Positions 3,035 to 63,490 of a stretch of DNA of 64,000 bases are shown here, in pieces (within the stretch, counting starts at the first letter, position 1; each line of letters starts with the position of its first letter). Source of the stretch: Ostreococcus lucimarinus (taxonomy: Eukaryota); the NCBI GenBank assembly GCA_000092065.1, contig CP000581.1. One strand, 5' to 3'. The notes beneath the pieces were generated by a model. That model did no database searches. It saw nothing but the letters and a program-made list of their open reading frames with translations, and was not told the origin of the DNA. The position numbers and the translations under genes were made by a program.

Positions 3035-4012
3035 ATGAACGACGATGTTGCGGGCGTCGCCACAAACGACACACGACATCAGCGTCCACCGAAGATTAAA
3101 TTGCGGCTAAACATTCCCGCGCGCGACGACGATGACGAGAAAGGACGCGCTGGAACGACGAGGAAACGAACGACGACCACGACCACGACCACGACCACGA
3201 CGTCGCGAGAAAACTCCATGAGCATGTCCATGGGAGCGTCCATGTCTTTGGGAGAGCACGGCGACGAACACGGCGACGAAGCGACGCAAGGGATGTCGTT
3301 CCTCTCGCCTCCGACTGGACGCCAAAAAAGGCACACCCACAGCCCGGCGACGACACCGATGTCGGTCGGAACGTCGCCAAGAATATCGTCGAAACGACCA
3401 AGAATGAGTAATGATTGGATTGAGGATGAAGTGCACCCGTCGATGGTCATGGGGACGCCGGGGAGCGGTGGCACGGCAGCGAAGCGATTGACATCGGAGA
3501 TCATGGCGAGCAACTTGTCGCAGCTCTTGAGCGTGTCGCCGATGTCGACAAATAACGATGGTGGTACTGCGTGCGCAGTTGATGAATCATGGACGTCGTC
3601 GAGCGCACCGATGTCATTTGGTGAAACCGTGAAGTCGTCAACGTCGCTGCTGAAGCGCACGCTGTCAGGGACGTACGGAGATACCACGGGCATGTTGATG
3701 CTGACGGCACCCCAGCTCGCCAAGTCACCAACAGAAAGCATGATGGTGAGTCATCACGGCGGCGGTGGTCTGCCTCCGTCATCACCGTCGGATCCTTCGC
3801 CAATTCACGATTTACGGAAAGCCGCACTCATGCGTTCGAGATTACTGAACGTTTCATCCGCTTTGCCGCCGCGAGCGACGCCTTCAAGCACTCGAGGGAA
3901 TCACTTGCAGCGTGGGTTCGTGCATGAACGTCCTCCGATTCACAGTTTAGGCGTTGGTACGGTTGATGTCGGTGACGAGACAGAGAGCGGAGAGAGGAAC
4001 GTAGCTAAGTAG
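3035..4012 (+). CDS. hypothetical Ser/Thr/Pro-rich low-complexity protein (poly-Thr run encoded by (ACGACC)n at ~3170-3200)
   Basis: ORF 3008..4012 in track starts at TTG; first ATG at 3035; low-complexity composition, so coding status moderately uncertain. Confidence 0.35.
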   Translation: MNDDVAGVATNDTRHQRPPKIKLRLNIPARDDDDEKGRAGTTRKRTTTTTTTTTTTSRENSMSMSMGASMSLGEHGDEHGDEATQGMSFLSPPTGRQKRHTHSPATTPMSVGTSPRISSKRPRMSNDWIEDEVHPSMVMGTPGSGGTAAKRLTSEIMASNLSQLLSVSPMSTNNDGGTACAVDESWTSSSAPMSFGETVKSSTSLLKRTLSGTYGDTTGMLMLTAPQLAKSPTESMMVSHHGGGGLPPSSPSDPSPIHDLRKAALMRSRLLNVSSALPPRATPSSTRGNHLQRGFVHERPPIHSLGVGTVDVGDETESGERNVAK

Positions 4013-9347: not shown

Positions 9348-11639
9348 CTAGTGAAACGATTTCGACTGTACGGCGAACGTGTGCTGTACTTGCGCGATTG
9401 GTATCGCATCGGATGTTTTATTGTCTCCAAGTGCTGCCTTGAGAGACGACAGTCCCTCAACCACATGTGCTTCAAGTTCTCGCCAAGTTCGTAACACGAG
9501 CTCGTGGACAATCAAATCTTTCATCAAGGTTTTTGCACAAGCTTCGACACTCTTTTCAACGCCCCGAACGTTCGGAATGGCGATCTTATACAGCTTGAGT
9601 AGGTGTGCGCGGCGGTCGCCGGCAGGCTGAAACGTTCCCACACTCGAGCCCGAGCGCAAAGCGTGGATCTCCCCGAAGAGCTTTCCAAAATGCTTTTCGC
9701 AAACCTCCGCGACGTAAGTTGAGCTCGCTAAAGTCATGAATCCGTCCAATTGCGCCGCTAGTCCGGCAGAAACGTCGCCTTCATTCTCACCTCTTTCGAA
9801 ACACCGAGCAAGTGAAAAATAGCCTTGAAGTCTTACTCTGTCATGTCTGAGTGAAGTCGTGAGTTTCGATTCGAGTAAAAGTAGAGATGAGGCATAAAAT
9901 TACCTCTTGGATACCGCACTCGCTGTATGTTCTATGTGCGTGCACGCTACATCACACATCGACAGAAAACAAGCATCAGCTGAGTGTTCACCATTTGCCG
10001 CAAACACGTTTTGAAGCTGCATATGAGCTGAAATAATTTTTCTCAACGGATCGAGCTCTGGCATGCGAAACTCATATTCTCCACCCGAATTGCGCGTCGA
10101 TGATTGCTTCGAGCGAAGCGCACTCAGCTCTCGAGCGAATTCCTGCGCAGCGCTGTTGATGTGCGCTTCTACGACGACCTGTAATTAAATCAAATAAATA
10201 AATCAAATCGAGCGCAGAGAAAACAATGCGATGACGCACCTGAAAGTTATTGACGCTTTCAGTCAACGCATATTGACCTAGAGCGTGCGTCGATGCAGAA
10301 GTATCAATCAAAGCCGCCAGAAACGCCACGCAAAGTGCGCTATTGGTCGCAATCGATTGTTCAATTAAATCGAGCAAACATCCCTCCAATCCTGTAATTA
10401 TTTCCTGATGATAGAATTCGCGATTATTCGACGCGATTCGGAATGTCGTGCCGAGAAACGTTTCCACCGTATTTCCCACAGTCTCCATGGCTGCAATCGC
10501 TGTCCTTAGCGCTTGAAACGCGACCTGCGAATTAATTATTTAATTTCATCCAACATCGTTCATTGAAATCGAGAAGAACTCACGTTTATGGCATCTGCTT
10601 CAGTATCTTGTTTGTCGATCGCGTCCATAATCATCACTATATCGCATCGCATCACTTCAACGCAGCTTTGGCAATATAGACGCGCGAAAGCATCCGCGGT
10701 TGTTGGACTTAATTCGGACAAAGCGTCAAATAATCTCTCGAATTTCTTTAAGTCGCTGCGTTTGTGAGCGATAGATGTGAGATTCGTGACAATATTTATT
10801 TCTGTCATGCACCGTACCTTTGTATTGCTTCCCACGTGTTCGCGTCGCTCATCGCTTTTTTTTGCGTCGACCATCGCACCCATCCCTGCAAGAAATATTA
10901 ATAAATTAATTCCAACGAGCAACACGATACACACCTCTGCGATCGCTCGCAAGCGCTCAAATACACGCTCAAACGCGTGCATGGCTATTACTTCTACTTG
11001 TTCGCGCGCTTCGACGGTGACTCGCATCGTCGCAATCCCTGCTGGTAAACCATCCCTACGTGAGACCGAGTTAGTTTCGGCGTGTAAAGTCGAAACGTCG
11101 CGCACAGCGTACCTCAGCTTTCTTTTGAAGTCCAACAGCCGACGCAGTGCGTCGTAGATGGTCAAAATGCCTCGTTCATCATCGAGTGAATGCTCGCGGA
11201 CTGCACGCTCGACACCAACAGGTAACTCTAACTCCCCAAGCAAGCCCCGCACGGCAGCTGCGAGCGCTCGCTTGTTCTCGTTGGAGACGTCTCGCTTGTC
11301 GTCTCTGCCTTTGATAATCTCGATGTTCCTACGCATATTAACCAGTTTTGTTTCAAACACCGTGGACCACGCGTTCACGTCCTCCATCGAGCGTTCGACT
11401 TCGGATACGTACGCGGACAACGAAGCCATGACGCTTCCCGATGACTCCAACGCGTCAGAGAGAGCGCGGTCGGCGTCTTCAAGCTCGAGCTTTAGGATCC
11501 TATCCAAGCTCGAGATCCCTTCCGTCGTCGCATGACGAGTGCTTTCGAACAGCTCGCCGATCACTCGCTCCTCTTCCTCCTTCAACACGCGCGTGGACGT
11601 GCTCGACACCTCTTCCGTCGTCGTCCCCGCGAGCCGCAT
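9348..11639 (-). CDS. multi-exon gene (>=4-5 short introns) encoding a ~650-aa helical protein, possibly a vesicle-tethering (exocyst/CATCHR-like) subunit; identity uncertain
   Basis: track ORFs 10560..11996, 10072..10488, 9348..9749 on the minus strand are linked by short AT-rich introns with GT..AG ends (e.g. 10525..10583 GTGAGT..CAG; 10179..10239 GTGCGT..CAG); ATG at 11639 (MRLAGTTTEEV). Confidence 0.6.
10179..10239 (-). other. spliceosomal intron (61 nt, GTGCGT...ATTACAG), AT-rich
   Basis: canonical donor/acceptor flanked by coding frames of the same gene. Confidence 0.6.
10525..10583 (-). other. spliceosomal intron (59 nt, GTGAGT...TTCGCAG), AT-rich
   Basis: canonical donor/acceptor; interrupts otherwise continuous coding frames; contains the stop that ends track ORF 10560..11996. 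Confidence 0.6.
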
Positions 11640-11749
11640 CGATGCGACTCGAGGTGGTTGGATTTGTTCGATTCTTTGCACCCGTCCCGACGCGCGAAGA
11701 CGGGTGTCGAGACCGTTTTGGACGTGAATTCTACTTGAGATAAACTTTT

Positions 11750-35488: not shown

Positions 35489-38400
35489 ATGGATTTGACG
35501 ACGACGTTTCCGGGAGATAGAATTGTTATCCGTGGACCACCGAGTTTAAAGCCGAACGATCGTGTGGTTGCAGCAGTGGTGGCACAACCGACGTCTTCCG
35601 TCGTGGTGACGCCAAGATTATCGACGTGGAGCTCACCCGTCGCATTAGCGGGTGTGCTCATCGTGGGTATCGTCACCGGCGCAGCTTTCGCGGGGAAAAG
35701 GCGGCTATCCACGGTCATCATGGCGCTCACGGGGAACGCGGACCCACAACTCGAGGCAAAAGACAACGAAATTGACGCTCTCAGAGCCCACCTGGATGTC
35801 GCGGAACGTGATCTCACGGACATGCGAGAGAAGTGGCTGAGGAACGAACAGTCGCTGGAAAACTTGCAACAGCTCCTGGAAAGTGCGTCGCGAGCCGACG
35901 CATCTTTGAGAGACCAAATCAGCGTGCTGAAAGAGTCCCTAGACTCAAGAAATAACGATGTCAAACGTCTCGAAAGCTCGAACGCTGAAGCCAATGAGCT
36001 TGCGGAGCAGTACAAAACCAAGCTTAAGAACGCTCAAGGTGAAGTTGACGCGCTGCGGGAAACTGAGAGAAACAGTGCGTCTCAACTTGCCCAAGTCACG
36101 CAGATGACAACGCAGTACGAAGGCGATATTTTGAGTTATAAAAGTAAATTATTGGACATCGAGGCGGAGCTGATGGCTCTCAGAGAGCTCAACGACGGTT
36201 ATTCTGATGAAGCAAATACCTCAAAAGAAAAGTACAAAGAGACACTGAGCGAAATTGCCAAAGTGACAGAGTTGAATGACAAGCTCGAGGCAGAGCTTTC
36301 AAAAACGAACGAACAGGTGATAAATCATCTAAACCAGCTAGCCATTCATAAGCACGACATGGAAAAGCTGGAATTAGAACTCGCGGCTTCTCGCAACGAT
36401 CTGTCAGAGTTGACGGTTGATTTTGAAAGCGCGAATACAAAATTGAGTTCACTTACGTCTGAACTGGAAGATAGCCGATCAGAGGCACTCGCATACTCGA
36501 ATGAGCTTCAAACTGTGAAAACCGACCTCGAGATTTCGATGGACGAACTCGAAACACTCAGAAAAAGTCTTAAAGCTTCGCAAGATCACGTTTCAGAATA
36601 TGAGATCAATCTCTCGGGTTACAAAACAAAGCTCGAAATGGTTCAATCGTCGCTTGAGATATCTCGTAATGAAGCCACAAGCTATCATGATGATCTTACT
36701 TTAAATAAACGTGAACTTGAGGAGGTGCGCGATGGACTTGAGCAGATAACGAGCGAGCTACGAGCTTCAAAGACTGAAAATTCCAGCTTATCTGATGAAC
36801 TCGACTGCTTAAAAAGCGAGCTTGAAATGCTTCAATCACAACTTGCTACTGCGAATGACGAGTCCTCAACACTCTCGATCGATCTTGCAGGGATTAAAAG
36901 TAAGCTCGAAATGGCTGAAAAAGCTCTGGAAGAGTCTCGCAATCAGGCATCTGGGTATAAGGGCGAGCTGGAAGTAGCACGTAATGAGGCTGTACAATTG
37001 TCTAGCGAGCTCATGGGCTTGAAAGTTAAGGTAGACGAGTTGGAGGTAGCGCTCAATGAAACCAGCGGAGAGTCGTCGACTCTTTCCATCGACCTCGCTG
37101 GTTTCAAGAGCAAGCTAGCAATGGTCGAGGAAGCTCTCGAGCAAGCGCGCACGCAGTCCTCTGAGTATGAAGGCGAGCTCGCTCGCGCTCGCGAGGCGCT
37201 CGAGAATGAGGCAAACGAGAAGAGATCCATGGAAGAGAAGTTTTCGAAGATGTGCGAGGAGCTATCTCAGCAGGGCATGCAAGCGTCGGAGGAAGGGGGA
37301 CGCCTAGAGCGCGAGCTCGCTTACACTCGCGAGGCGCTCGAGAATGAGGCAAACGAGAAGAGATCCATGGAGGAGAAGTTTTCAAAGACGTGCGAAGAGT
37401 TATCTCAGCAGGGCATGCAGGCGTCGCAGGAAGTTGATCGCCTGCAAGGTGAGTTGCAAAAGTCTAGAACCGCACTTGATAAAGCTAACGGCGAATCTTC
37501 ACTTCTTTCCATTGACCTCGCTGGTTTCAAGAGCAAGCTAGCAATGGTCGAGGAAGCTCTCGAGCAAGCGCGCATGCAGTCCTCTGAGTATGAAGGCGAG
37601 CTCGCTCGCGCTCGCGAGGCGCTCGAGAATGAGGCAAACGAGAAGAGATCCATGGAAGAGAAGTTTTCGAAGATGTGCGAGGAGCTATCTCAGCAGGGCA
37701 TGCAAGCGTCGGAGGAAGTTGATCGCCTGCAAGGTGAGTTGCAGGCGGCGCAAGCGGCGCTCGATAGCGCGTCGGGCGAGTCGTCGACTCTTTCCATCGA
37801 CCTCACTGGTTTCAAGAGCAAGCTAGCAATGGTCGAGGAAGCTCTCGAGCAAGCGCGCACGCAGTCCTCTGAGTATGAAGGCGAGCTCGCTCGCGCTCGC
37901 GAGGCGCTCGAGAATGAGGCAAACGAGAAGAGATCCATGGAAGAGAAGTTTTCGAAGATGTGCGAGGAGCTATCTCAGCAGGGCATGCAAGCGTCGGAGG
38001 AAGGGGGACGCCTAGAGCGCGAGCTCGCTCGCGCTCGCGAGGCGCTCGAGAATGAGGCAAACGAGAAGAGATCCATGGAAGAGAAGTTTTCGAAGATGTG
38101 CGAGGAGCTATCTCAGCAGGGCATGCAAGCGTCGGAGGAAGTTGATCGCCTGCAAGGTGAGTTGCAGGCGGCGCAAGCGGCGCTCGATAGCGCGGTGCGG
38201 GATTCAACGGAGATTCGCATTTCTGCTGATGGCTACAAGATGAATCTTGAAGCAGCGCAATGCGAGCTTGATGCGTTACGATCGCAAAGCGGTGACACGT
38301 CATCAGACCTTACAGAATATAAGAACAAGGTTGAATCATTGCAGTCCGAGCTTTTGTCTGCCCGTGAGGACTCTATGAAAACAGCAGAGGCTTTATCGCG

Positions 38401-39805
38401 AGAACAAATCAAATTTCAAGGCATGGAGGAAAAGTTGGCAAATATCGTAGCATCGAGCGGGGCAGACAACGTTGAGATTGAAACTTATAAATCACGGCTT
38501 GCGAGCAGTGAATTAGAACTCGAAACTCTTAGGGTGAAAGCAGCGGTAAATGCTGAAGAAGCAGAAAAGTATCAAGTAAATCTCATCGACGCCCGTGAGG
38601 AAGTTGCAAGATTAGCCGATGAAATTGGCGAGTGGAAGAGCAAAGCAGATTCTCTCGAACACCAACTCGGTCAAGTTCAGATGGAGCACCCCGACAAAGA
38701 TGAAGATGCAGAAAAAAATCGTCAGCTTGAGGACGAGTTAGAACTCTTAAAAGAAAAAGTCTCAGCGTCATCGGCTGAAATAGAGTCATACATGGGTAAG
38801 TTGGAGCACGCGGAATCTGAACTTTCAGTGATGCGAGCTGAGATTGAAGGAGGAAAACACGAAAGATCCGAACAAAACCAGGAAGTGATCGCGCGCATGC
38901 AAATTGAAGTTAGTGCAGCAAATGAGCGAGCTGATCGCTATAAGCAGCGTTTGCTTGAGCTCGAGGAAAATATGCAGCTCAAGTTAGAATCCCTTGAGTC
39001 GATTGCTGAATTTTCTGAAACAGAGGAAGTGCGATTGCTGCAGGAACAAATTTCGAGGCTTGAGTCAGAAAACGCCGAGGCGAACTCAATGCTGAAAAAC
39101 ATGGAACAGGATATAGCGAAAATGCGTGTCTCTTCTATCGAGCCTTCTCAGTCTCCAATGTGGCTGATCGAGGAAGAGCGGCGTGACATGGAATTATCTA
39201 TGCTTGAAGCGAGACAAGCAGCACAGCTCTCATTGGCACAAGTGTCGCAGGCGGTAACCAAAATGAGACAACAAGCGCGAGGCGAGCTGGTTTCGCATGC
39301 CATCTCTTGCGAGTTCAAAGTACGCAAAGATGTTGGCGAACATCAATTCCTTTGTTTGGTAGGAAGTTGGCACGAGTGGGATGTACAGACAGCTGATTAC
39401 ATGCAGCGCGGCGCTGATGGTACCTGGCAAGTTGCCATCACGCTCTTTGCAGATGAGGCGTACGAATATAAATACTGTGTTTGCGAGGTAAATGAGCACG
39501 GTCAGCGTGTTCCAATAGAGTGGCAAGTAGGCCACAATCACGGCTTTGCCTTCGATTCAAATCTAATCGTCAATCAGAACATGAAGGCCAAGGCGCAGAT
39601 CCGAGATAAATTTCTCGCGGATCCAGCGCATACCCCAATAATCTTATTTGGGCCAAATGGTGAAAAGTTTGAGACGGGTAGTACGGCGCTGCTCCACAAC
39701 TTCTCGAATCACATCGCTGAAAGTGGATTTGAGAATTTGCGAACGAGTCTTGAGCGTTTAAATGCCATCCTCGCGAAGTCACAGCGTAAAAATCTTGAGG
39801 CGTAG
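35489..39805 (+). CDS. giant coiled-coil protein (>=1440 aa) with internal near-identical tandem repeats and C-terminal CBM20-like starch-binding module; an in-frame upstream extension (35180..35488, no ATG) would add a LysM-like segment before a single hydrophobic helix
   Basis: continuous 4.6-kb ORF, AT-richer than neighbours; heptad-rich E/K/L/S sequence; CBM20-like FKVRKDVGEHQFLCLVGSWHEWDVQTADYMQRGADGTWQVAITLFADEAYEYKYCVCEVNEHGQRVPIEWQVGHNHGF; hydrophobic segment VALAGVLIVGIVTGAAFAG; start codon uncertain (alternatives ATG 35726 or 35828). Confidence 0.65.
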   Translation: MDLTTTFPGDRIVIRGPPSLKPNDRVVAAVVAQPTSSVVVTPRLSTWSSPVALAGVLIVGIVTGAAFAGKRRLSTVIMALTGNADPQLEAKDNEIDALRAHLDVAERDLTDMREKWLRNEQSLENLQQLLESASRADASLRDQISVLKESLDSRNNDVKRLESSNAEANELAEQYKTKLKNAQGEVDALRETERNSASQLAQVTQMTTQYEGDILSYKSKLLDIEAELMALRELNDGYSDEANTSKEKYKETLSEIAKVTELNDKLEAELSKTNEQVINHLNQLAIHKHDMEKLELELAASRNDLSELTVDFESANTKLSSLTSELEDSRSEALAYSNELQTVKTDLEISMDELETLRKSLKASQDHVSEYEINLSGYKTKLEMVQSSLEISRNEATSYHDDLTLNKRELEEVRDGLEQITSELRASKTENSSLSDELDCLKSELEMLQSQLATANDESSTLSIDLAGIKSKLEMAEKALEESRNQASGYKGELEVARNEAVQLSSELMGLKVKVDELEVALNETSGESSTLSIDLAGFKSKLAMVEEALEQARTQSSEYEGELARAREALENEANEKRSMEEKFSKMCEELSQQGMQASEEGGRLERELAYTREALENEANEKRSMEEKFSKTCEELSQQGMQASQEVDRLQGELQKSRTALDKANGESSLLSIDLAGFKSKLAMVEEALEQARMQSSEYEGELARAREALENEANEKRSMEEKFSKMCEELSQQGMQASEEVDRLQGELQAAQAALDSASGESSTLSIDLTGFKSKLAMVEEALEQARTQSSEYEGELARAREALENEANEKRSMEEKFSKMCEELSQQGMQASEEGGRLERELARAREALENEANEKRSMEEKFSKMCEELSQQGMQASEEVDRLQGELQAAQAALDSAVRDSTEIRISADGYKMNLEAAQCELDALRSQSGDTSSDLTEYKNKVESLQSELLSAREDSMKTAEALSREQIKFQGMEEKLANIVASSGADNVEIETYKSRLASSELELETLRVKAAVNAEEAEKYQVNLIDAREEVARLADEIGEWKSKADSLEHQLGQVQMEHPDKDEDAEKNRQLEDELELLKEKVSASSAEIESYMGKLEHAESELSVMRAEIEGGKHERSEQNQEVIARMQIEVSAANERADRYKQRLLELEENMQLKLESLESIAEFSETEEVRLLQEQISRLESENAEANSMLKNMEQDIAKMRVSSIEPSQSPMWLIEEERRDMELSMLEARQAAQLSLAQVSQAVTKMRQQARGELVSHAISCEFKVRKDVGEHQFLCLVGSWHEWDVQTADYMQRGADGTWQVAITLFADEAYEYKYCVCEVNEHGQRVPIEWQVGHNHGFAFDSNLIVNQNMKAKAQIRDKFLADPAHTPIILFGPNGEKFETGSTALLHNFSNHIAESGFENLRTSLERLNAILAKSQRKNLEA
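37060..38210. repeat. in-frame tandem repeat array: ~3 copies of a ~288-nt (96-aa) unit, two of which carry an extra nested 126-nt (42-aa) duplication; copies near-identical at DNA level; older diverged ~70-aa units extend upstream to ~36400
   Basis: repeated peptide ESSTLSIDLAGFKSKLAMVEEALEQARTQSSEYEGELARAREALENEANEKRSMEEKFSKMCEELSQQGMQASEEVDRLQGELQAAQAALDSA; identical spurious antisense ORF peptides (37104..37385, 37405..37653, 37690..37938, 37812..38303) prove nucleotide-level identity. Confidence 0.85.
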
Positions 39806-52424: not shown

Positions 52425-53471
52425 TTAATAATCGTCATCTAGATAGTTGCCGTCGTCGATTCCATCTCCATCGATTTCGTCGTACCCCCACGGACTCGAT
52501 GTCTTGACCGGGGGCTCGCGGGCAACATCGATGATGGCGTTGATGGCGTCGAGGCACTGAAGCCCCTCGGCGTCGTCCGCCGTCGGTCCCGGCTGCGTCG
52601 GCCCGAGCGGTACGCTCGGAGACAAGTCATGCAAAAACCAAGGATGATGGTATATCCCTGAGACAGTTATTCTATTCTTCGGATCGACGTTGAAAATTTG
52701 CGTGAGCAAATCCTTGCACTCGTCTGTCATATTCTGCGGAAGGTCGAATTTGGCCGACAACACGCGCTGCATCATCTTGTGCGAGTTGTTTGGATCTTGA
52801 GGATCCGAAAACGGATATCTACCCACTAACATGACGTACAATAAAACCCCACACGCCCACACGTCCGATGCCGCGCCATCGTACGGTTGCGCCCCGCTAT
52901 ACACCTCCGGCGAAATGTACGCCGGCGTCCCGATTTGCGTCTTTGGCTGACTGTCGAATCCCCCTTTGGAGAACCCAAAATCACAAATCTTCAGCACCGG
53001 CGTCGTCGTGAGATCCACCAGCGTGTTCTCAAGTTTCAAATCTCGGTGCGATATTCTCATATTATGCAAATACTCCACCCCCGAGATCAAGTGTTGAAAA
53101 AAATACCTCGCCTGCGACTCCGTAAAATTCCCTTGCTGCTGCACGTACCCAAACAGTTCGCCCCCCCCGATCGCCTCCATCGCCACCGCCAGGTGCGTCG
53201 GCGTCACCAGCACCTCCTTAAACTTCACGATGTTCGGATGGCTCAGGTTCCGATGATTCGTGATCTCTCGTCGCACGTGTTCGGTGATCTTTTCACCGCG
53301 TTCGATGTACTTCAGCGCGTACATTCGCCCCGTGGTTTTCTCGCGCATGAGTTTCGTGTACCCGTACGACCCGGTGCCGAGCAGGGCGTCGTTCACCGGT
53401 TCGTACCGCGCGTCGTGATCATCGACGTCGACGTCCGCGCGCGCTCGCGTCGCGGTCGCGGGCGTCGCCAT
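52425..53471 (-). CDS. SnRK2-type serine/threonine protein kinase (SNF1-related kinase 2) with acidic C-terminal tail
   Basis: YEPVNDALLGTGSYGYTKLMREKTTGRMYALKYIERGEKI...HRDLKLENTLVD...LKICDFGFSKGGFDSQPKTQIGTPAYISPEV...DVWACGVLLYVMLVGRYPFSDPQDP...HPWFL; D/E-rich C-terminus; ATG 53471 verified; 198 upstream codons of track ORF trimmed. Confidence 0.8.
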   Translation of the reverse strand: MATPATATRARADVDVDDHDARYEPVNDALLGTGSYGYTKLMREKTTGRMYALKYIERGEKITEHVRREITNHRNLSHPNIVKFKEVLVTPTHLAVAMEAIGGGELFGYVQQQGNFTESQARYFFQHLISGVEYLHNMRISHRDLKLENTLVDLTTTPVLKICDFGFSKGGFDSQPKTQIGTPAYISPEVYSGAQPYDGAASDVWACGVLLYVMLVGRYPFSDPQDPNNSHKMMQRVLSAKFDLPQNMTDECKDLLTQIFNVDPKNRITVSGIYHHPWFLHDLSPSVPLGPTQPGPTADDAEGLQCLDAINAIIDVAREPPVKTSSPWGYDEIDGDGIDDGNYLDDDY

Positions 53472-53540
53472 GCCGTCGCGCCGTCGCGACGCCGTCGTCG
53501 CGGTCTGCGCCCCGGGCGCGCGCGACGCCGCCGACGCCGC

Positions 53541-53570
53541 CGATCGATCGATCGATCGATCGATCGATCG
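53541..53570. repeat. (CGAT)n tetranucleotide microsatellite, 7.5 units, between the divergent starts of the SnRK2 gene and the downstream plus-strand gene
   Basis: cgatcgatcgatcgatcgatcgatcgatcg read directly. Confidence 0.9.
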
Positions 53571-53815
53571 TGGACGACGGTTCGCGATCGGGACGCGAAT
53601 CGACGCGCGCGATATCGACGCGTGTGACGGCGCGCGCGCGCGCGGTGACGGCCAGTGCGCGACGCGCGCGCGAGCGGAGCGTCGAAGACGACGCGCGCGC
53701 GCGTCTGAATCGTCGCGGCGGCGCGCGGTCGAGACGCGGGACGACGGGACGAGGGGAAGGGATACGGCGCGACGCGTCTCGCGGCGACGTCTCGAGCGCG
53801 GGACGAAGGCGCGGG

Positions 53816-55642
53816 ATGGAGGACGACGCGGAGTGCGAAACGGAATCGACGAACGCGACGAGCGCGAAGGATGCGACGACGTTGGGCGAAGTTGGAGCGG
53901 TGCCGCCGTTACCGTCGGAACCGCGACCGAGGGGAAGAGGAGAGCGGGGCGGGGGCGGGGACGGCGCGCGAAGCGTTCCCGGCTGGCTTCACGCGGCGGA
54001 GGTTGGAGGGAAGATTCAGCGCGAGCGCGGGATGAGGAGCGCGAACAATATCGAGGGATTGCCACTCGATGAATTTACGAGGGATATGACGAGTCTGGGA
54101 CAGTGGGCGCGCGTGGGAAACGGGGGTAAGAGGGCGATGGGTGACGCGCTTCGAGCGACGTCGTTTGCGTCGCTCGAGTCGGCGGTCGTGCGAGAGACCT
54201 GGCCGCGAGGGATGATGGATGCGTACCTCGACGCGCAATTTCTCAGAAGTGTCGAGCAAGGAAAGATGGTGCAATGCTTCACTGAATCTGGAGACGCGGC
54301 GTGGGCGACGTTTCACACGAATTTACTGTCGTACGACGAGTTCCCTCTCTTCGCGATGTTTGGCCGAGAATTTACACGAATCGACAAGTCCCAAGCCGTT
54401 AACGGAGGGAAATGGGAGCTGGTGGGGTTCGTCGATGATGTCACCTTGCGCGACCCATCGCAGCCGTGGAACGCGATCGAGCCAATCTTGCACGTGCCAC
54501 CGCGACCGACGTTTGTGGAGGATCCGTGCGATTGTCTCTGGATCGCCGATGAAACCGGCGACGACGTCGTCCTTGAAATCGACGCGCGTTTTTGGGAATC
54601 TCTCGAGTCAGATGCCGTTGTCGCTCTTCTGAAGGAATTTTCAACGTTGACTGCGCGTCATCACGCCGGGATGAGTGCGATTTCGCGATTGGCGCGCTTG
54701 GTGTCGTACGGCTTCCACGCTCCGGTGCCGAGATTCGCGCGCTTGCAAGGCGCTCGCGGTCCTGGGAAGGTACAAATGCTGCTCCCATTCAAAGCGGATT
54801 CGAAATCCATGCAAACGCGCGCCGCGGTGGTGGTAGATATAATCAAAAGTCGCCGCGGTGGGAGGATGTATCGGGCCGTCGGTGTCGTATCGCTTCGAGA
54901 GGCAGTGTTTACCGCGCGCGTCATCGGACCGCTGACGACGTCCGATTGGTTAAACGCAGACGCCATCGAACGCTCGCCCTCGATTTCGGTTTCGCCTCCG
55001 GAGAGCGAGAACGCCTGGGATGAACGGAAAGACGACTATCCTACTAAAGTCGCGTACGCGACGATGGCGACGAAAGCGCCGGCCCAACCAGCTGACGGAA
55101 TTCAAATTGCGTCTCCAACGCAACCCGTCGGCAAAATCCAAATTCAAAAAACGTCAAAGCCTTCGTCGGCTTCAAACGGAACAACGCCAGCGATGCCGAC
55201 GCGCATGAAAATTGATGACTGGTACAAGGCCACGATCGCCGATGATGGTCCGCCGAAAATTGTGAACCCAAAGGTGAACTTGAAAATGTTGCCGTTTGAA
55301 TTCATGCAAGCTGTTTGCAAAAAGCTTCACCTCGATGATTCGATTCTTCGGTTGTCAGACGCTCCGTCGGAGAGCGAATATCGCTTGACTCAAGCGTTAT
55401 CAACCGAAGCGAGTGGATGGGTGAGATCGATCATGTCTTCCTACGGCATAATCGATCGCGTGTACGTCGGGGTCAGTCGACGGGTGCGGTGTTTCTTCGC
55501 CGTCGTGTCATTTGAGAAGTGGACGGATCTCGAAGTCCGCAACGCGCTGGTTTCAGGCGAGACGATTCAAGTCGCTGGTTTCAGATGTCGAGAGAAGGTG
55601 TACATGCGACTGTCTCTTCAAGACAAGCGTAGTGCATTGTGA
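53816..55642 (+). CDS. hypothetical protein (~600 aa), no family assigned; start uncertain (alternative ATG 54032)
   Basis: track ORF 53570..55642 starts at GTG; first ATG 53816; N-terminal RG-rich, remainder globular-looking. Confidence 0.45.
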   Translation: MEDDAECETESTNATSAKDATTLGEVGAVPPLPSEPRPRGRGERGGGGDGARSVPGWLHAAEVGGKIQRERGMRSANNIEGLPLDEFTRDMTSLGQWARVGNGGKRAMGDALRATSFASLESAVVRETWPRGMMDAYLDAQFLRSVEQGKMVQCFTESGDAAWATFHTNLLSYDEFPLFAMFGREFTRIDKSQAVNGGKWELVGFVDDVTLRDPSQPWNAIEPILHVPPRPTFVEDPCDCLWIADETGDDVVLEIDARFWESLESDAVVALLKEFSTLTARHHAGMSAISRLARLVSYGFHAPVPRFARLQGARGPGKVQMLLPFKADSKSMQTRAAVVVDIIKSRRGGRMYRAVGVVSLREAVFTARVIGPLTTSDWLNADAIERSPSISVSPPESENAWDERKDDYPTKVAYATMATKAPAQPADGIQIASPTQPVGKIQIQKTSKPSSASNGTTPAMPTRMKIDDWYKATIADDGPPKIVNPKVNLKMLPFEFMQAVCKKLHLDDSILRLSDAPSESEYRLTQALSTEASGWVRSIMSSYGIIDRVYVGVSRRVRCFFAVVSFEKWTDLEVRNALVSGETIQVAGFRCREKVYMRLSLQDKRSAL

Positions 55643-59683: not shown

Positions 59684-60163
59684 ATGGAGTGCCACCGCGC
59701 GAGCGCGTTGAAGGCGAAACGAGAGCTCGACATGGTGAAAAGGTTGAGAGACGCGGAGCGGGACGAGTTGCGCGCGACGCGCGCGGCGTTGATGGAGATG
59801 AATCGAGACGCGAAGGGAGATGAAGTGAATCGAGTGAAAGAGATGACAGGATTTGAAAATACGATTCGCCATGAGCGCGCGCGGCGAGAGGCGGCAGAAT
59901 CGGAGAGGGATGAGTTGATGGATTTGCTGCATATGGCGCACGCAAAATTGGAGCACGCCGACGCAAAGATTCGCAGTGTCGATCGCATGATTGCGAACGA
60001 CGTGCGGCGAGTATGCGACGCGATCAATGACGAACGCATGCGTTCTATTGACTGCACTGTTTCCAACGTTGGCACGACGCAAACATTACTCGATCGTTTG
60101 TCAGAGTTGTATGAGTCTCGGTTTGCGAAGTCTCGCGAGGCGTTGCGAGAAATTTCAAGCTGA
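59684..60163 (+). CDS. small hypothetical coiled-coil protein; upstream in-frame extension to 59492 has no ATG
   Basis: track ORF 59492..60163 (GTG start); first ATG 59684; heptad-rich. Confidence 0.3.
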   Translation: MECHRASALKAKRELDMVKRLRDAERDELRATRAALMEMNRDAKGDEVNRVKEMTGFENTIRHERARREAAESERDELMDLLHMAHAKLEHADAKIRSVDRMIANDVRRVCDAINDERMRSIDCTVSNVGTTQTLLDRLSELYESRFAKSREALREISS

Positions 60164-60248: not shown

Positions 60249-61841
60249 TTAACTCGCGTCATCGGGTAAGCCAATGATTGCTTGTTTCTCCGCCGCCGTC
60301 TTCTTTTTCTGCACTGAAGTGTGCTTCTTTCGAAGTGTTTGCTCATCCATGTGGAAATCCTTCGGCCAAAGCTCCACAACTTCTTTCCACACCGCGCCGG
60401 CGGTTGCCTTGGAGGTTGCAAAGAAGATACGCACGAGCGTGACGAACATGAGCTCGGCGATTTCCTTCGTCCATTCAAATGTGTAGCTCTCAGACGTCGC
60501 CACTCCTGTTTTGATTCGTTCAGACTCGCGAATCGTTTCGCACTGCTTATCGACCAAAGCCTTGATCTTTGCAAACTCCGCAGCTTTGCCATCGACTATC
60601 TTCTTCCTCGCCTCGGGATGCCTCGGGTCGGTCACGTCAAGGTTGGCGGCGCCACGGGAAGCCGTGGCGTTGGAAGATTTTGTCTTTTGCGAGGAAGAGT
60701 TGACAACCGCAGCCGCGTGCTGCGAACGCCTGGGCGTGCTCAAACCATCCTCTTCACCTTCCTCCTCCTCTTCGTCGTCGTCTGTTTCCTTGACATTCAT
60801 CATCGATGGTGGTTTAGGTGGCACCTTCGGGATGACGATGTCGATCCCGAGCGCCTGCAAATCCTTCTCCATCGCGTCCCATTGTTTGCGCATGCGATGA
60901 GTCGAATACGACTTCAGCTCGGGGTACTCGCCACAATCAAGGATCATCTGCCATCTTTTACCGTACGTCGTCACCGCCTTTCGAAGCGTTTTCTTGGTCT
61001 CCTCCGTCCATTCCACCATCTTGGCTGGCGCCGGCTTCTCCTTCTTCGCCGGGGGTTTGTCGTCAGACGTCATCGCCACATGCTTCACGGGAGTTCGCCC
61101 CTCTTCATCGACCTTTTGCAACTCGCCCTTATTGATGAAGAATCCACTATGTTTGGTTTTTAAGCCATCGTCTTCAAAGTACTCATCCAGTTCGTCGTCG
61201 TCGATGAAATCGTCGTCGACGTCGTACCAGTCCACGTCTCTCTTTCTCTTCGCCTGTTTCTTCTTCTTCGCCGGTTTCCCTTTCTTTTCCTCGGACGACT
61301 TCGCCGCAGGAGGCTGTTCAATACGCTGCGTACCGTTGGGCGTCATCGTCGGCTTATCATCCGGGTCCTCCATTTCACTTCCGGAGTCCTCCTCGTCTCC
61401 GCTCTCTCCGAGCTCGTCGTCGTCGCCCTCGCCTTCTTCACCACTCTCACCCTCTTCATCGCCCTCGTCGTCTTCGTCTTCTTCAGAATCCTCCTCTGAC
61501 CCGTCCTCGTCGTCGTCCTCTTCATCATCGCTCGACGCGTTCCCCGGTCCACCTTGATACAGCGCCTCGATTCTTCGAATCACCGCCGCCATGTGTCCGC
61601 CCCCGCCCGCGCCGCCGCTCTCCAACAAAGATTTCGGCGATTTCATCGCCGCCTCGCTCGCCGTCGCCGTCGCCGACTTCTGCTTCGCTTCCTTCTCCGC
61701 CGACGCGCGCGTCTCCCCGCTCTGCTCCCTCAACAGCTTTTTATAATTCACGCACGGCACGTCTTCGCCGTCGACGTCGAGCAGCTGCACCAACCGCCGC
61801 GGCGCCGCCGGGCTCCCCCCCCCTCGTCTCGCCGGCGTCAT
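60249..61841 (-). CDS. ubinuclein / Hpc2-like HIRA-complex subunit (HUN/Hpc2-related domain) with acidic tracts and a SANT/Myb-like segment
   Basis: DWYDVDDDFIDDDELDEYFEDDGLKTKHSGFFINKGEL (HRD motif), long D/E runs, WTEETKKTLRKAVTTYGKRWQMI; ATG 61841 verified. Confidence 0.6.
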   Translation of the reverse strand: MTPARRGGGSPAAPRRLVQLLDVDGEDVPCVNYKKLLREQSGETRASAEKEAKQKSATATASEAAMKSPKSLLESGGAGGGGHMAAVIRRIEALYQGGPGNASSDDEEDDDEDGSEEDSEEDEDDEGDEEGESGEEGEGDDDELGESGDEEDSGSEMEDPDDKPTMTPNGTQRIEQPPAAKSSEEKKGKPAKKKKQAKRKRDVDWYDVDDDFIDDDELDEYFEDDGLKTKHSGFFINKGELQKVDEEGRTPVKHVAMTSDDKPPAKKEKPAPAKMVEWTEETKKTLRKAVTTYGKRWQMILDCGEYPELKSYSTHRMRKQWDAMEKDLQALGIDIVIPKVPPKPPSMMNVKETDDDEEEEEGEEDGLSTPRRSQHAAAVVNSSSQKTKSSNATASRGAANLDVTDPRHPEARKKIVDGKAAEFAKIKALVDKQCETIRESERIKTGVATSESYTFEWTKEIAELMFVTLVRIFFATSKATAGAVWKEVVELWPKDFHMDEQTLRKKHTSVQKKKTAAEKQAIIGLPDDAS

Positions 61842-62289
61842 CCCGCCCGTCCCGGTCGCGCGCGCGTCGTCCCCCTCCTCTTCCCTCGCCTTCCTTCACG
61901 CCGCGCGCGTCCCGCGCCTCGCCTCCGATCCACCCGCGCGCGTCCCGCGCCTCCGCTAAGCGCGCGCCCCGCGCGTTTCAAACGGATGCGCGCACGAATC
62001 GATTCACGCGGAGCGTCCCCGACGCGCCTGGCGCGCGCGCGCGTCGTCTCGATCCGTCGCCCGCGTCGTCGCGGTTTGCGGCGTCGCGCGCGCGTCGTCT
62101 CGATCCGTCGCGCGCGTCGGTCGTCGTCGGTCGTCGTCGGATGTCGGACGTCGTCGGATGTCGGATCCGTCGTCGGCCGGCGTCGAGTGGCGTCGCGCGA
62201 TCGACGCGATATCGGCGCGTCGCGCGACCGACGCGATATCGGCGCGACGGCGCGGGACGGGACCGGCGACGCGATATCGGATATCGGCG

Positions 62290-62670
62290 CGGCGCGGCGC
62301 GGTCGCGCGCATGGGTGTACGTGTATCGTAAATACGCCTAAAGCGGCCGTATTCGAACGCATCGATGCGGGATCGCGCGTCCACGATCGATCGCGGTCGC
62401 GTCGCGCGCGCGGGCGCGCATGCATTGATTATGGGTGTACGTGTATCGTAAATACGCGACCGCGGCCGTATTCGAACGCATCGATGCGGGATCGCGGATC
62501 CCGGATAGATCGCGGGCGCGTCGCGCGCGCGGTCGCGCATGCGTCGATTATGGGTTTACGTGTATCGTAAATACGCGACCGCGGCCGTATTCGAACGCAT
62601 CGATGCGCGATCGCGCGTCCACGATGGAGCGCGGGCGCGTCGCGCGCGCGGTCGCGCATGCATCGATTCG
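62290..62670. repeat. intergenic minisatellite: ~3.2 tandem copies of a ~120-bp unit, palindrome-rich (CGCATCGATGCG, TTCGAA, TACG..CGTA)
   Basis: unit starts (ATGGGTGTACGTGTATCGTAAATACGC...) at 62311, 62431, 62550 (period 119-120); copies >90% identical. Confidence 0.85.
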
Positions 62671-63169
62671 TGCGTTCGCGACGGGGCGATAGAGTCGGAC
62701 GCGATGGACGCGACGTGCGCGCCGCCGCCGGCGAGACCGAATTGCGATTGCGGTGCGCGCGACGCGACGCTGCGCGACGCGACGGGACGCGGGACGACGC
62801 GACGACGACGCGCGGGCGATCGAGGGTCGAGGGCGCGCGGTCGAGGGCGGGATCTCGACGGCGCGCGAGCGACGGCGCGCGGGACGCGCGCGGGACGCGG
62901 GCGACGGCGACCGCGCGATCGGGGAGTGGGGAGACTGACGGATGCGGTGATCGCGCGCGAGAACAGCGGTGTGCGTGCCGAAGGCGCTGAAAGATGGGGA
63001 TTACGACGCCTCGCTCAAGGGGCCGACGAGCCCGTTTCAGCCGTACAAGCTGGTGAAGGTGGAGTTGGACGGCACGCGAAGACCGCTGACGGCGCAGGAG
63101 CTGAACGCGCTCGAAAAGTCGAATCCGACGGTTTGTGAGTGGCAAACGCCGCTCAGTCAGGCGAAGCGG

Positions 63170-63490
63170 ATGTGGCAGAAGACGTGCGCGGGGATTTTGA
63201 AAAAGTTGTTTACGTACAAAAAGTTGGCGTGGCCGTTTACGGAGCCGGTGGATTGGGAGGTTTTGAACATCCCGGATTACCCGGTCATCATCAAGCATCC
63301 CATGGACTTGAAAACGATCGAGTCGAAGTTGCACGACGGGCACATCGAAAGCCCTGATGAGTTTGTCGCCCTCGTGCGCACGGTTTTCCGTAACGCGTAC
63401 GTGTACAACGCGGTGGGCGATCCCAGCGGCGTTCGCGAGTGCGCGGAGAAGCTCTCGCAAATTTTCGAGAAGGAACTCGCCAAATTGTAA
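63170..63490 (+). CDS. bromodomain protein (minimal model from first ATG; track ORF begins at GTG 62969, so a 5' exon is possible)
   Basis: CAGILKKLFTYKKLAWPFTEPVDWEVLNIPDYPVIIKHPMDLKTIESKL...FRNAYVYN (bromodomain ZA/BC signature). Confidence 0.65.
   Translation: MWQKTCAGILKKLFTYKKLAWPFTEPVDWEVLNIPDYPVIIKHPMDLKTIESKLHDGHIESPDEFVALVRTVFRNAYVYNAVGDPSGVRECAEKLSQIFEKELAKL

What the first reader, a model, noticed from the sequence alone, without database searches (positions are those of the whole stretch)
61842..62968. Atypically long GC-rich divergent intergenic region containing a 3 x 120-bp palindromic minisatellite and other direct repeats
Typical spacers in this window are 30-500 bp. This region is 1.1 kb between the ubinuclein-like gene (minus strand) and the bromodomain gene (plus strand). 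It contains short direct repeats (GCGCGCGTCCCGCGCCTC x2 near 61900-61960; TCGTCGTCGG / GATGTCGGA runs near 62110-62170) and a 120-bp unit repeated ~3.2 times at 62290-62670. Each unit holds the perfect palindrome CGCATCGATGCG, TTCGAA and inverted TACG/CGTA arms. This could be a structured regulatory element, a satellite, a replication-origin-like element or the footprint of a degenerate mobile element.
Basis: seen in the sequence. Interest (0 to 1): 0.55.

Follow-up and report, generated by a model that had tools for sequence, protein, structure and literature searches.

The report
Tandem-triplicated promoter segment in Ostreococcus
A 119-bp stretch just upstream of a bromodomain gene in the tiny marine alga Ostreococcus lucimarinus has been copied three times in a row; it is a real but local, species-specific promoter minisatellite, not a structured, mobile or genome-wide element.

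Summary
The repeat is real: 119 bp x 3.0, plus a 25-nt partial copy, at 62286-62668. Copies are 89-92% alike. Independent metagenome contigs reproduce it.

The window is Ostreococcus lucimarinus CCE9901. The "1.1-kb intergenic region" is over-stated. Its right 264 bp are exon 1 (62704-62752) and a 214-nt intron of the bromodomain gene. The spliced product equals XP_001415528.1. The true ATG-to-ATG spacer is 862 bp, and the array ends 35 nt before the bromodomain ATG.

- The unit occurs nowhere else in the window, the JGI metagenome contigs, viral contigs or GTDB genomes.
- Its palindromes and predicted fold are no better than shuffled sequence.
- No Rfam family or tRNA matches.
- Five other Ostreococcus lineages keep the same divergent gene pair with a long spacer (382-707 bp), but none has the array.
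- The closest lineage has one positional copy of the unit core.

Best reading: a lineage-specific tandem triplication of proximal promoter or leader DNA, inside a conserved, CpG-rich, repeat-prone bidirectional promoter.

One mild curiosity: O. tauri (30 bp x 3) and O. mediterraneus (24-nt inverted CCAAT arms) show their own duplications in the same promoter. Interest is low.

The parts
60249..61841 (-). CDS of the HUN/ubinuclein-type (Hpc2-related) gene; start codon at 61839-61841
   Evidence: 530-aa ORF. Pfam HUN E=2e-14. Exact match to XP_001415857.1 of O. lucimarinus CCE9901. The MTP... start is conserved in related species.
61842..62703 (.). True divergent spacer (862 bp) between the two start codons; a bidirectional promoter region with GC 0.70 and CpG o/e 2.05
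   Evidence: 75% of it lies in TRF arrays. The orthologous spacers are 382-707 bp in five other Ostreococcus lineages.
61899..61976 (.). 33-bp x 2.4 direct repeat. It carries two minus-strand copies of GCGCGGGACGCGCGCGG (61901-61917 and 61934-61950), 60-109 nt upstream of the HUN ATG
   Evidence: The core GACGCGCGCG is held at a similar position in the sister lineage and in species B and C.
62034..62176 (.). Two 35-nt copies 51 bp apart (97% alike), followed by a degenerate (CGT)n-type tract
   Evidence: It matches in position the (CGT)45-62 tracts in species B, species C and the sister lineage. CG/ACG/CCG repeats are a known genome-wide peculiarity of O. lucimarinus (PMC3152781).
62190..62254 (.). 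27-bp x 2.4 tandem repeat; CGACGCGATATCGG occurs three times (62202, 62229, 62267)
62286..62310 (.). Partial 'copy 0', resembling the 3' end of the 119-bp unit
   Evidence: BLAST of unit positions 85-108 against 62286-62308 gives 92% identity; alignment.
62311..62430 (.). Copy 1 of the unit (120 nt)
62431..62549 (.). Copy 2 of the unit (119 nt)
62550..62668 (.). Copy 3 of the unit (119 nt), which ends 35 nt before the bromodomain ATG. Its CGTATTCGAACGC core lies 118 nt upstream of the ATG
   Evidence: The same 13-mer lies 111 nt upstream of the ATG, in single copy, in the sister lineage.
62704..62752 (+). Exon 1 of the bromodomain gene (49 nt, phase 1), encoding MDATCAPPPARPNCDC
   Evidence: The spliced 190-aa protein equals XP_001415528.1 exactly. 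The exon and its GTGCG donor are conserved in all the related lineages examined.
62753..62966 (+). Intron (214 nt; GTGCGC donor, ACTGAC branch-point motif at 62934-62939, acceptor AG at 62965-62966). It contains a plus-strand GCGCGGGACGCGCGCGG at 62877-62893
62967..63490 (+). Exon 2 of the bromodomain gene (coordinates include the stop codon)
   Evidence: (Pfam Bromodomain E=4e-16).

Best explanation
The feature is a lineage-specific minisatellite. About 119 bp of proximal promoter or 5'-leader DNA of a small bromodomain gene was tandemly triplicated, most likely by replication slippage or unequal exchange. This happened in the O. lucimarinus lineage, after it split from its closest sampled relative.

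The array lies inside an unusually long, CpG-rich, low-complexity bidirectional promoter shared with a divergently transcribed HUN/ubinuclein-type gene. That spacer is long and repeat-prone across the genus.

Shown: the array's structure, its uniqueness to this locus, its absence from relatives, and its position 35-393 nt upstream of the true start codon.

Inferred: the mechanism of origin. Also inferred is that any effect is limited to multiplying whatever promoter elements the unit carries, for example its only AT-rich patch (GTATCGTAAATACG) and the ATCGAT and TTCGAA sites. The array most probably has little or no function of its own.
For: - Structure: 119 bp x 3.0 with no indels, copies 89-92% alike, plus a partial leading copy. 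Six independent contigs reproduce it.
- Position: the spliced gene model equals XP_001415528.1, which puts the ATG at 62704.
- Uniqueness: no second copy in the 64-kb window. The 22-mer hits only this locus in the JGI metagenome contigs. There are no viral matches, and a 28-base pattern from the unit has no match in prokaryotic genomes.
- Lineage specificity: no array in the sister lineage L019-L021, species B (L008), species C (L012), O. tauri (L022) or O. mediterraneus (L023). The sister lineage has one copy of CGTATTCGAACGC at the matching offset, 111 against 118 nt before the ATG.
- No special structure: palindromes at chance level, fold z-score -1.2, no Rfam or tRNA match.
- Repeat-prone context: 75% TRF coverage here against 0-11% in other spacers. 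CG/ACG/CCG repeats are a documented peculiarity of this genome (PMC3152781).
Against: - No transcript, TSS, chromatin or binding data could be consulted, so 'promoter/leader' rests on position alone.
- Variable sites among the copies cluster at unit positions 28-31 and 59-86. Two blocks (1-27 and 32-58) are almost invariant, which could hint at constraint. With three copies this cannot be tested.
- Similarity of the unit to the sister-lineage spacer is not significant by Smith-Waterman against shuffles (53-55 of 500 shuffles do as well for copies 2 and 3). Orthology rests on an exact 13-mer at a matching offset.
- Independent duplications in the same promoter in O. tauri and O. mediterraneus fit a selected, functional role better than pure neutrality.
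- How fully the JGI metagenome collection covers the rest of the O. lucimarinus genome is assumed, not measured.
Confidence: 0.8

Rival explanations
1. The array is a functional tandem promoter or enhancer module. Each unit would carry a core-promoter-like AT patch and transcription-factor sites (ATCGAT, TTCGAA). Three units would then give three start sites or a stronger promoter, and copy number would tune expression of the bromodomain chromatin reader, as promoter repeats do in yeast.
For: - The array lies within 400 nt of the ATG.
- Two unit blocks are nearly invariant among the copies.
- Assembled copy number differs among strains: 1 in L003 and L017, 3 in most contigs, at least 4 with an N gap in L005.
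- The same promoter carries independent duplications in O. tauri (30 bp x 3, roughly 60-150 nt upstream) and O. mediterraneus (24-nt inverted arms with CCAAT boxes, 119-188 nt upstream).
- Promoter tandem repeats that affect expression are an established phenomenon (Vinces et al. 2009, as cited in PMC3887541).
Against: - The palindrome is not conserved even in the sister lineage, which has CGCGTCAACGCG.
- The AT patch is absent there.
- ATCGAT is only modestly enriched in the window (55 against 32 expected, inflated by two repeat arrays) and is not confined to spacers.
- The copy-number differences may be short-read assembly collapse.
- There are no expression data.
Confidence: 0.15
2. The array is the footprint of a mobile element or a prasinovirus-derived insertion.
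For: - An 18-nt perfect inverted repeat (61933-61950 / 62877-62894) brackets the region and is longer than in any of 200 shuffles.
- The unit has no recognisable homologue in species B or C.
Against: - The inverted arms enclose genus-conserved exon 1. Their GACGCGCGCG core is kept at similar positions in several of the related lineages that lack the array, so they are not insertion termini.
- There is no other copy anywhere and no viral match.
- The sister lineage has a positional counterpart of the unit core.
Confidence: 0.02
3. The units encode a structured non-coding RNA or a small peptide; each unit begins with ATGGGTGTACGTGTATCGTAA.
For: Each unit opens with a 6-codon mini-ORF (read directly from the sequence). 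A weak mir-592 match lies nearby (E=0.04, 24 bits against a gathering score of 67).
Against: - Fold stability is not above shuffles.
- No Rfam family reaches threshold in the window or in the orthologous loci.
- A 119-nt period is not a multiple of three.
- ORFs through the array are arginine-rich GC artefacts on both strands.
- The sequence is not conserved in relatives.
Confidence: 0.02
4. The array marks a centromere or a replication origin of chromosome 1. In related assemblies the locus lies near mid-chromosome, and Ostreococcus centromeres are undefined.
For: The orthologous locus lies at 0.55-0.61 Mb of contigs 1.13-1.18 Mb long in species B and O. tauri. The spacer is the most repeat-dense segment of the window.
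Against: - There are only three copies in 358 bp.
- The array sits between two start codons 862 bp apart.
- Relatives that share the gene order lack it.
- The GC-skew switch is what divergent genes give anyway.
Confidence: 0.01

Closest known systems
Promoter-proximal tandem repeats (minisatellites/VNTRs), as described for about 25% of S. cerevisiae promoters (Vinces et al. 2009, cited in PMC3887541) and for plant 5'-UTR/UI200 regions (PMC3887541)
   Same: Head-to-tail copies within a few hundred bp upstream of a start codon, lineage-specific, with possibly variable copy number among strains.
   Different: The unit is long (119 bp) and GC/CpG-rich, whereas the yeast repeats are short and AT-rich. 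No link to expression or nucleosome occupancy has been shown here.
CG/ACG/CCG-type microsatellites that make O. lucimarinus a repeat-usage outlier (Mayer et al. 2010, PMC3152781)
   Same: The left two-thirds of the spacer and the intron consist of exactly these repeat types: (CG)n, a degenerate (CGT)n tract, and CGCGA x 10.8.
   Different: The 119-bp unit itself is complex sequence, not a microsatellite. That study covered unit sizes only up to 50 bp.
Large polymorphic 'accordion' tandem repeats on the small outlier chromosome of O. tauri and O. mediterraneus (about 2.2 kb and 1.8 kb units; PMC5082852, PMC13390643)
   Same: Ostreococcus tandem arrays that are species-specific, have no homologue elsewhere, and vary in copy number.
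   Different: Those have kilobase units, tens of kb in total, lie on the outlier chromosome, carry ORFs and are linked to virus-resistance dynamics. This array is 358 bp in a housekeeping-type promoter on chromosome 1.
CpG-island-like bidirectional promoters
   Same: The spacer lies between divergent start codons, has a very high CpG o/e (2.05), and carries a mirrored GC-rich motif on both sides.
   Different: TSSs are unmapped. In this genome CpG enrichment is general (window-wide o/e 1.54), so the 'island' contrast is modest.

Membership tests
Minisatellite / tandem repeat | Head-to-tail copies of a unit of 10 bp or more, at a level beyond chance | tested here: met
   TRF gives 119 bp x 3.0, 90% matches, score 595. 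The repeat finder gives a spacing of 119/119.
Minisatellite / tandem repeat | Copy-number polymorphism among individuals (VNTR behaviour) | tested here: inconclusive
   Contigs show 1 copy (L003, L017), 3 copies (six contigs) and at least 4 with an N gap (L005). Short-read collapse cannot be excluded.
Satellite DNA / dispersed repeat family | The same unit at many loci or in long arrays | tested here: not met
   This is the only locus in the window and in the JGI metagenome contigs.
Transposable element / MITE footprint | Terminal inverted repeats with target-site duplication, and multiple genomic copies | tested here: not met
   There are no other copies. The 18-nt inverted arms enclose a conserved exon, and their core motif is present in relatives that lack the array.
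Virus-derived insertion (prasinovirus) | Sequence match to viral genomes | tested here: not met
   Two conserved unit segments have 0 matches in IMG/VR. These were exact-match scans only.
Structured RNA (Rfam families, tRNA) | A covariance-model match, or a fold more stable than shuffles | tested here: not met
   The best Rfam hit is E=0.04, far below its gathering score. Orthologous loci give none. ARAGORN finds 0. Fold z-score is -1.2.
Bidirectional (divergent) promoter | Lies between the start codons of two divergently oriented genes | tested here: met
   The HUN ATG is at 61841 (minus strand) and the bromodomain ATG at 62704 (plus strand). The arrangement is conserved in six lineages.
Bidirectional (divergent) promoter | Mapped transcription start sites on both strands | not testable with these tools
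   No transcript or 5'-end data are available. No spliced transcript-derived protein was found in the collection.
Expression-tuning promoter repeats (yeast type) | Repeat number changes expression or nucleosome occupancy | not testable with these tools
   This needs reporter assays or strain expression data.
Centromere / replication origin | CENH3 or ORC occupancy, or a sequence shared among chromosomes | not testable with these tools
   Occupancy cannot be tested here. The shared-sequence criterion is not met, because the unit is unique.

The most novel reading that the evidence does not exclude
The proximal promoter of this single-bromodomain gene may be a recurrent target of element multiplication in Ostreococcus. 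The evidence is 119 bp x 3 in O. lucimarinus, 30 bp x 3 in O. tauri, an inverted CCAAT-box duplication in O. mediterraneus, and possibly 1 to 4 or more copies among wild O. lucimarinus strains. If so, repeat number would act as an evolvable dial for the dosage of a chromatin reader in a genome that otherwise has almost no spare non-coding DNA.
Probability: 0.12. Interest if true: 0.45.

Novelty: new member of a known kind. Interest (0 to 1): 0.15.

Why it matters
As it stands it matters little. It is one more promoter minisatellite, and part of the 'anomaly' was an unrecognised exon and intron.

It has three modest uses:
- It is a cautionary example. Prokaryote-style ORF reading of Ostreococcus DNA inflates spacers and produces spurious ORFs through GC-rich promoters.
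- If the copy number really varies, the array would make a strain-typing marker for O. lucimarinus in metagenomes.
- If the recurrence of duplications in this one promoter across species is more than chance, it would be a tractable case of promoter evolvability in a minimal eukaryotic genome. O. tauri can be transformed, so this could be tested.

Tried and rejected
- An upstream exon inside the repeat (ATGG|GTGTACGT at the start of each unit). I first considered that each unit supplied the start codon and splice donor. I rejected this once the conserved block at 62704-62752 gave a spliced product identical to XP_001415528.1.
- Palindrome significance. Rejected by dinucleotide shuffles.
- ATCGAT as a promoter motif. 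Enrichment is modest (55 against 32 expected), is inflated by the array and by an (ATCG)n microsatellite, and the sites are not confined to spacers.
- The second exact CGCATCGATGCG at 11635-11646. It overlaps a start codon and shows no wider similarity to the unit. I treated it as coincidence.
- A homologue of the unit in species B and C. Smith-Waterman scores are within the shuffle range.
- Transcript evidence. I looked for spliced-junction proteins among the cluster members. All of them are unspliced ORF calls from genomic contigs.
- Rfam, tRNA and DNA fold. Nothing found.
- The heuristic ORF-based gene map of the window was too noisy in GC-rich spacers. I used the gene calls for spacer lengths instead.

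Full report
**Organism and locus.**
- The 530-aa minus-strand ORF at 60249-61841 has a HUN (Hpc2/ubinuclein) domain. It is identical to XP_001415857.1 of Ostreococcus lucimarinus CCE9901.
- The same protein is carried by hundreds of marine metagenome contigs. Nine of these were compared with the window.
- Several contigs are 100% identical to the window over 2.5-13.8 kb. The window is therefore O. lucimarinus nuclear DNA, apparently chromosome 1, since the longest record is 1,152,508 bp.

**The observation.**
- TRF reports a 119-bp unit x 3.0 at 62311-62668 with 90% matches, no indels and score 595. The repeat finder gives the same register.
- The copies are 89.2%, 90.8% and 92.4% identical. 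The 15 variable columns cluster at unit positions 28-31 and 59-86.
- Six independent contigs reproduce the three-copy array with the same differences between copies. It is not an assembly artefact of the reference.

**The region is not all intergenic.**
- Related Ostreococcus contigs share a conserved block upstream of the bromodomain ORF. That led to a two-exon model:
  - exon 1 at 62704-62752 (ATG plus 46 nt, phase 1);
  - a 214-nt intron at 62753-62966, with a GTGCGC donor, ACTGAC at 62934-62939 and the acceptor AG at 62965-62966;
  - exon 2 from 62967.
- The spliced 190-aa product is exactly XP_001415528.1.
- Exon 1 encodes M-x-x-C-[VA]-P-P-P-x-R-P-x-C-x-C. The exon and its donor are conserved in species B and C, the sister lineage, O. 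tauri and O. mediterraneus.
- The true ATG-to-ATG spacer is therefore 61842-62703, or 862 bp. The array ends 35 nt upstream of the bromodomain start codon.
- Even so it is the longest spacer locally. The other spacers in the 21.6-kb gene map are 36-345 bp.

**How unusual is it?**
- Composition is not unusual. The window as a whole has a CpG o/e of 1.54. About 30 GC- and CpG-rich islands sit at gene starts, and some match this one in GC (0.70) and CpG density (22.7 per 100 bp).
- The (CG)n-rich 3' part of the unit is the only part that matches other spacers.
- Mayer et al. 2010 already singled out O. lucimarinus as an extreme outlier rich in CG, ACG and CCG repeats (PMC3152781).
- Tandem-repeat density is unusual. 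75% of the spacer lies in TRF arrays. That compares with 3.9% of the window and 0-11% of the other CpG-rich spacers.
- Three of the four non-coding arrays in the window with a period of 25 bp or more lie in this spacer.

- Structure:
  - Perfect palindromes are no more frequent than in dinucleotide-preserving shuffles (12-mers: 3 observed against 2.5 expected).
  - A unit folds no better than its shuffles (z = -1.2).
  - Rfam gives nothing near threshold in the window or in three orthologous loci, and there is no tRNA.
- Satellite or mobile element:
  - The 22-mer CGTATTCGAACGCATCGATGCG, shared by all three copies, occurs in only three JGI metagenome contigs, all of them this locus.
  - It does not occur in IMG/VR, and a second 20-mer does not either.
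  - A 28-base pattern from the unit has no match in GTDB genomes.
- Inverted repeat:
  - An 18-nt perfect inverted repeat (61933-61950 / 62877-62894) is longer than in any of 200 shuffles.
  - Its arms lie upstream of the HUN ATG and inside the bromodomain intron, so they enclose the conserved exon 1.
  - The core GACGCGCGCG sits at similar mirrored positions in several of the related lineages that lack the array.
  - It therefore looks like a shared promoter or intron motif, not element termini.

**Comparative evidence.**
- The divergent HUN-bromodomain pair is conserved across the genus. The spacers are long by Ostreococcus standards:

| Lineage | Locus | Spacer (bp) |
|---|---|---|
| O. tauri | L022 | 382 |
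| Sister lineage (HUN 95% identical) | L019-L021 | 587 |
| Species B | L008 | 621 |
| Species C | L012 | 694 |
| O. mediterraneus | L023 | 707 |
| O. lucimarinus | window | 862 |

.
- None of the other five lineages has the 119-bp array.
- Removing the two extra copies (238 bp) brings O. lucimarinus to 624 bp, which is within the genus range.
- The sister lineage carries a single CGTATTCGAACGC 111 nt before its ATG. In copy 3 the same 13-mer lies 118 nt before the ATG. The surrounding similarity is loose, and the palindrome is degraded to CGCGTCAACGCG.
- The whole-unit similarity is not significant against shuffles, so orthology rests on that exact 13-mer at a matching offset.
- The unit is not recognisable in species B or C. 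The proximal promoter evolves quickly.
- A strain 98.7% identical (L017) and one 99.84% identical (L003) are assembled with one unit. L005 has at least four units with a scaffold gap. This is either real copy-number variation or assembly collapse.

**Interpretation.**
- The best-supported account is a recent, lineage-specific tandem triplication of proximal promoter or leader DNA of the bromodomain gene. It probably arose by slippage or unequal exchange in a spacer that is intrinsically repeat-prone.
- Shown: structure, uniqueness, lineage specificity and position.
- Inferred: the mechanism of origin and the probable lack of an autonomous function.
- The unit contains the only AT-rich patch near the gene (GTATCGTAAATACG), so it may include core-promoter sequence. 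Without TSS data this is conjecture.

**One hint of something more.**
- O. tauri has its own near-perfect 30-bp x 3 array about 60-150 nt upstream of the same gene.
- O. mediterraneus has 24-nt inverted arms carrying CCAAT boxes 119-188 nt upstream.
- Three independent duplications in one promoter could reflect selection for multiplied elements, or simply a local mutational bias. I could not estimate the background rate beyond this window.

**Verdict.** The feature is real, but it is an ordinary kind of thing, and part of its apparent size was a missed exon and intron. Novelty: a new member of a known kind (a promoter minisatellite). Interest is low.

Noticed in passing
window 62704-62966: The bromodomain gene has a 49-nt first exon and a 214-nt intron that ORF reading misses. 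Exon 1 plus the start of exon 2 encode a Cys-rich motif (C-x-PPPARP-x-C-x-C-A-V-C) conserved across Ostreococcus. Metagenome gene callers instead report 173-204-aa unspliced ORFs, plus spurious 195-234-aa arginine-rich ORFs through the spacer.
   Followed up: yes
L022 3677-3766 (O. tauri, GCA_002158475.1 KZ155838.1): A near-perfect 30-bp x 3 tandem repeat (AAAAACACCCGCGTGTGCAGGTGCGGTCGA on the locus + strand) lies about 60-150 nt upstream of the orthologous bromodomain ATG. It is unrelated in sequence to the 119-bp unit.
   Followed up: partly
L023 3412-3435 / 3458-3481 (O. mediterraneus): A 24-nt inverted repeat (92% complementary, 22-nt loop) carries CCAAT boxes in both orientations, 119-188 nt upstream of the orthologous bromodomain ATG. 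Opposed (GAC)n/(GTC)n tracts in the same spacer form long imperfect hairpins.
   Followed up: partly
window 61901-61917(-), 61934-61950(-), 62877-62893(+), 59770-59786(+, 1 mismatch): The 17-mer GCGCGGGACGCGCGCGG occurs three times exactly (5 matches at up to 2 mismatches, against 0.18 expected). It faces away from the spacer centre on both sides. Its GACGCGCGCG core holds similar mirrored positions in several of the related lineages: about 100-170 nt upstream of the HUN ATG, and about 160-195 nt downstream of the bromodomain ATG, inside the intron.
   Followed up: partly
window 62311-62331, 62431-62451, 62550-62570: Each unit begins with a 6-codon mini-ORF, ATG GGT GTA CGT GTA TCG TAA (TTA replaces GTA in copy 3). 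These would be uORFs if transcription starts upstream of them.
   Followed up: no
window 11635-11646: A second exact copy of the 12-bp palindrome CGCATCGATGCG overlaps the start codon of a minus-strand gene. There is no wider similarity to the unit.
   Followed up: partly
window 37169-38161: A large in-frame tandem repeat (138-bp period x 7.1; 285 bp x 2.4 at 91% identity) lies inside a long plus-strand ORF (35489-39805). It looks like a repetitive coding domain.
   Followed up: no
window 53543-53568: A perfect (ATCG)n microsatellite (six overlapping ATCGAT sites) lies in another GC-rich divergent spacer (about 53471-53816).
   Followed up: no
L008 5743-5752 (species B): A plant-type telo-box / telomere-repeat motif, AAACCCTAAA, lies about 65 nt upstream of the orthologous bromodomain ATG. 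It is absent from O. lucimarinus.
   Followed up: no
L008 5434-5583; L012 1523-1661; L019 (reverse strand) about 228-399 of the extracted spacer string: Long (CGT)45-62 trinucleotide tracts occupy the middle of the orthologous spacer in three related lineages. O. lucimarinus has only a degenerate remnant at 62115-62176.
   Followed up: partly
whole window: CpG is over-represented throughout (o/e 1.54 overall, 1.44 in the HUN CDS, about 2.0 in spacers). PMC5082852 reports extensive CpG methylation in nucleosome linkers in Mamiellales, and methylated genomes usually lose CpG.
   Followed up: no
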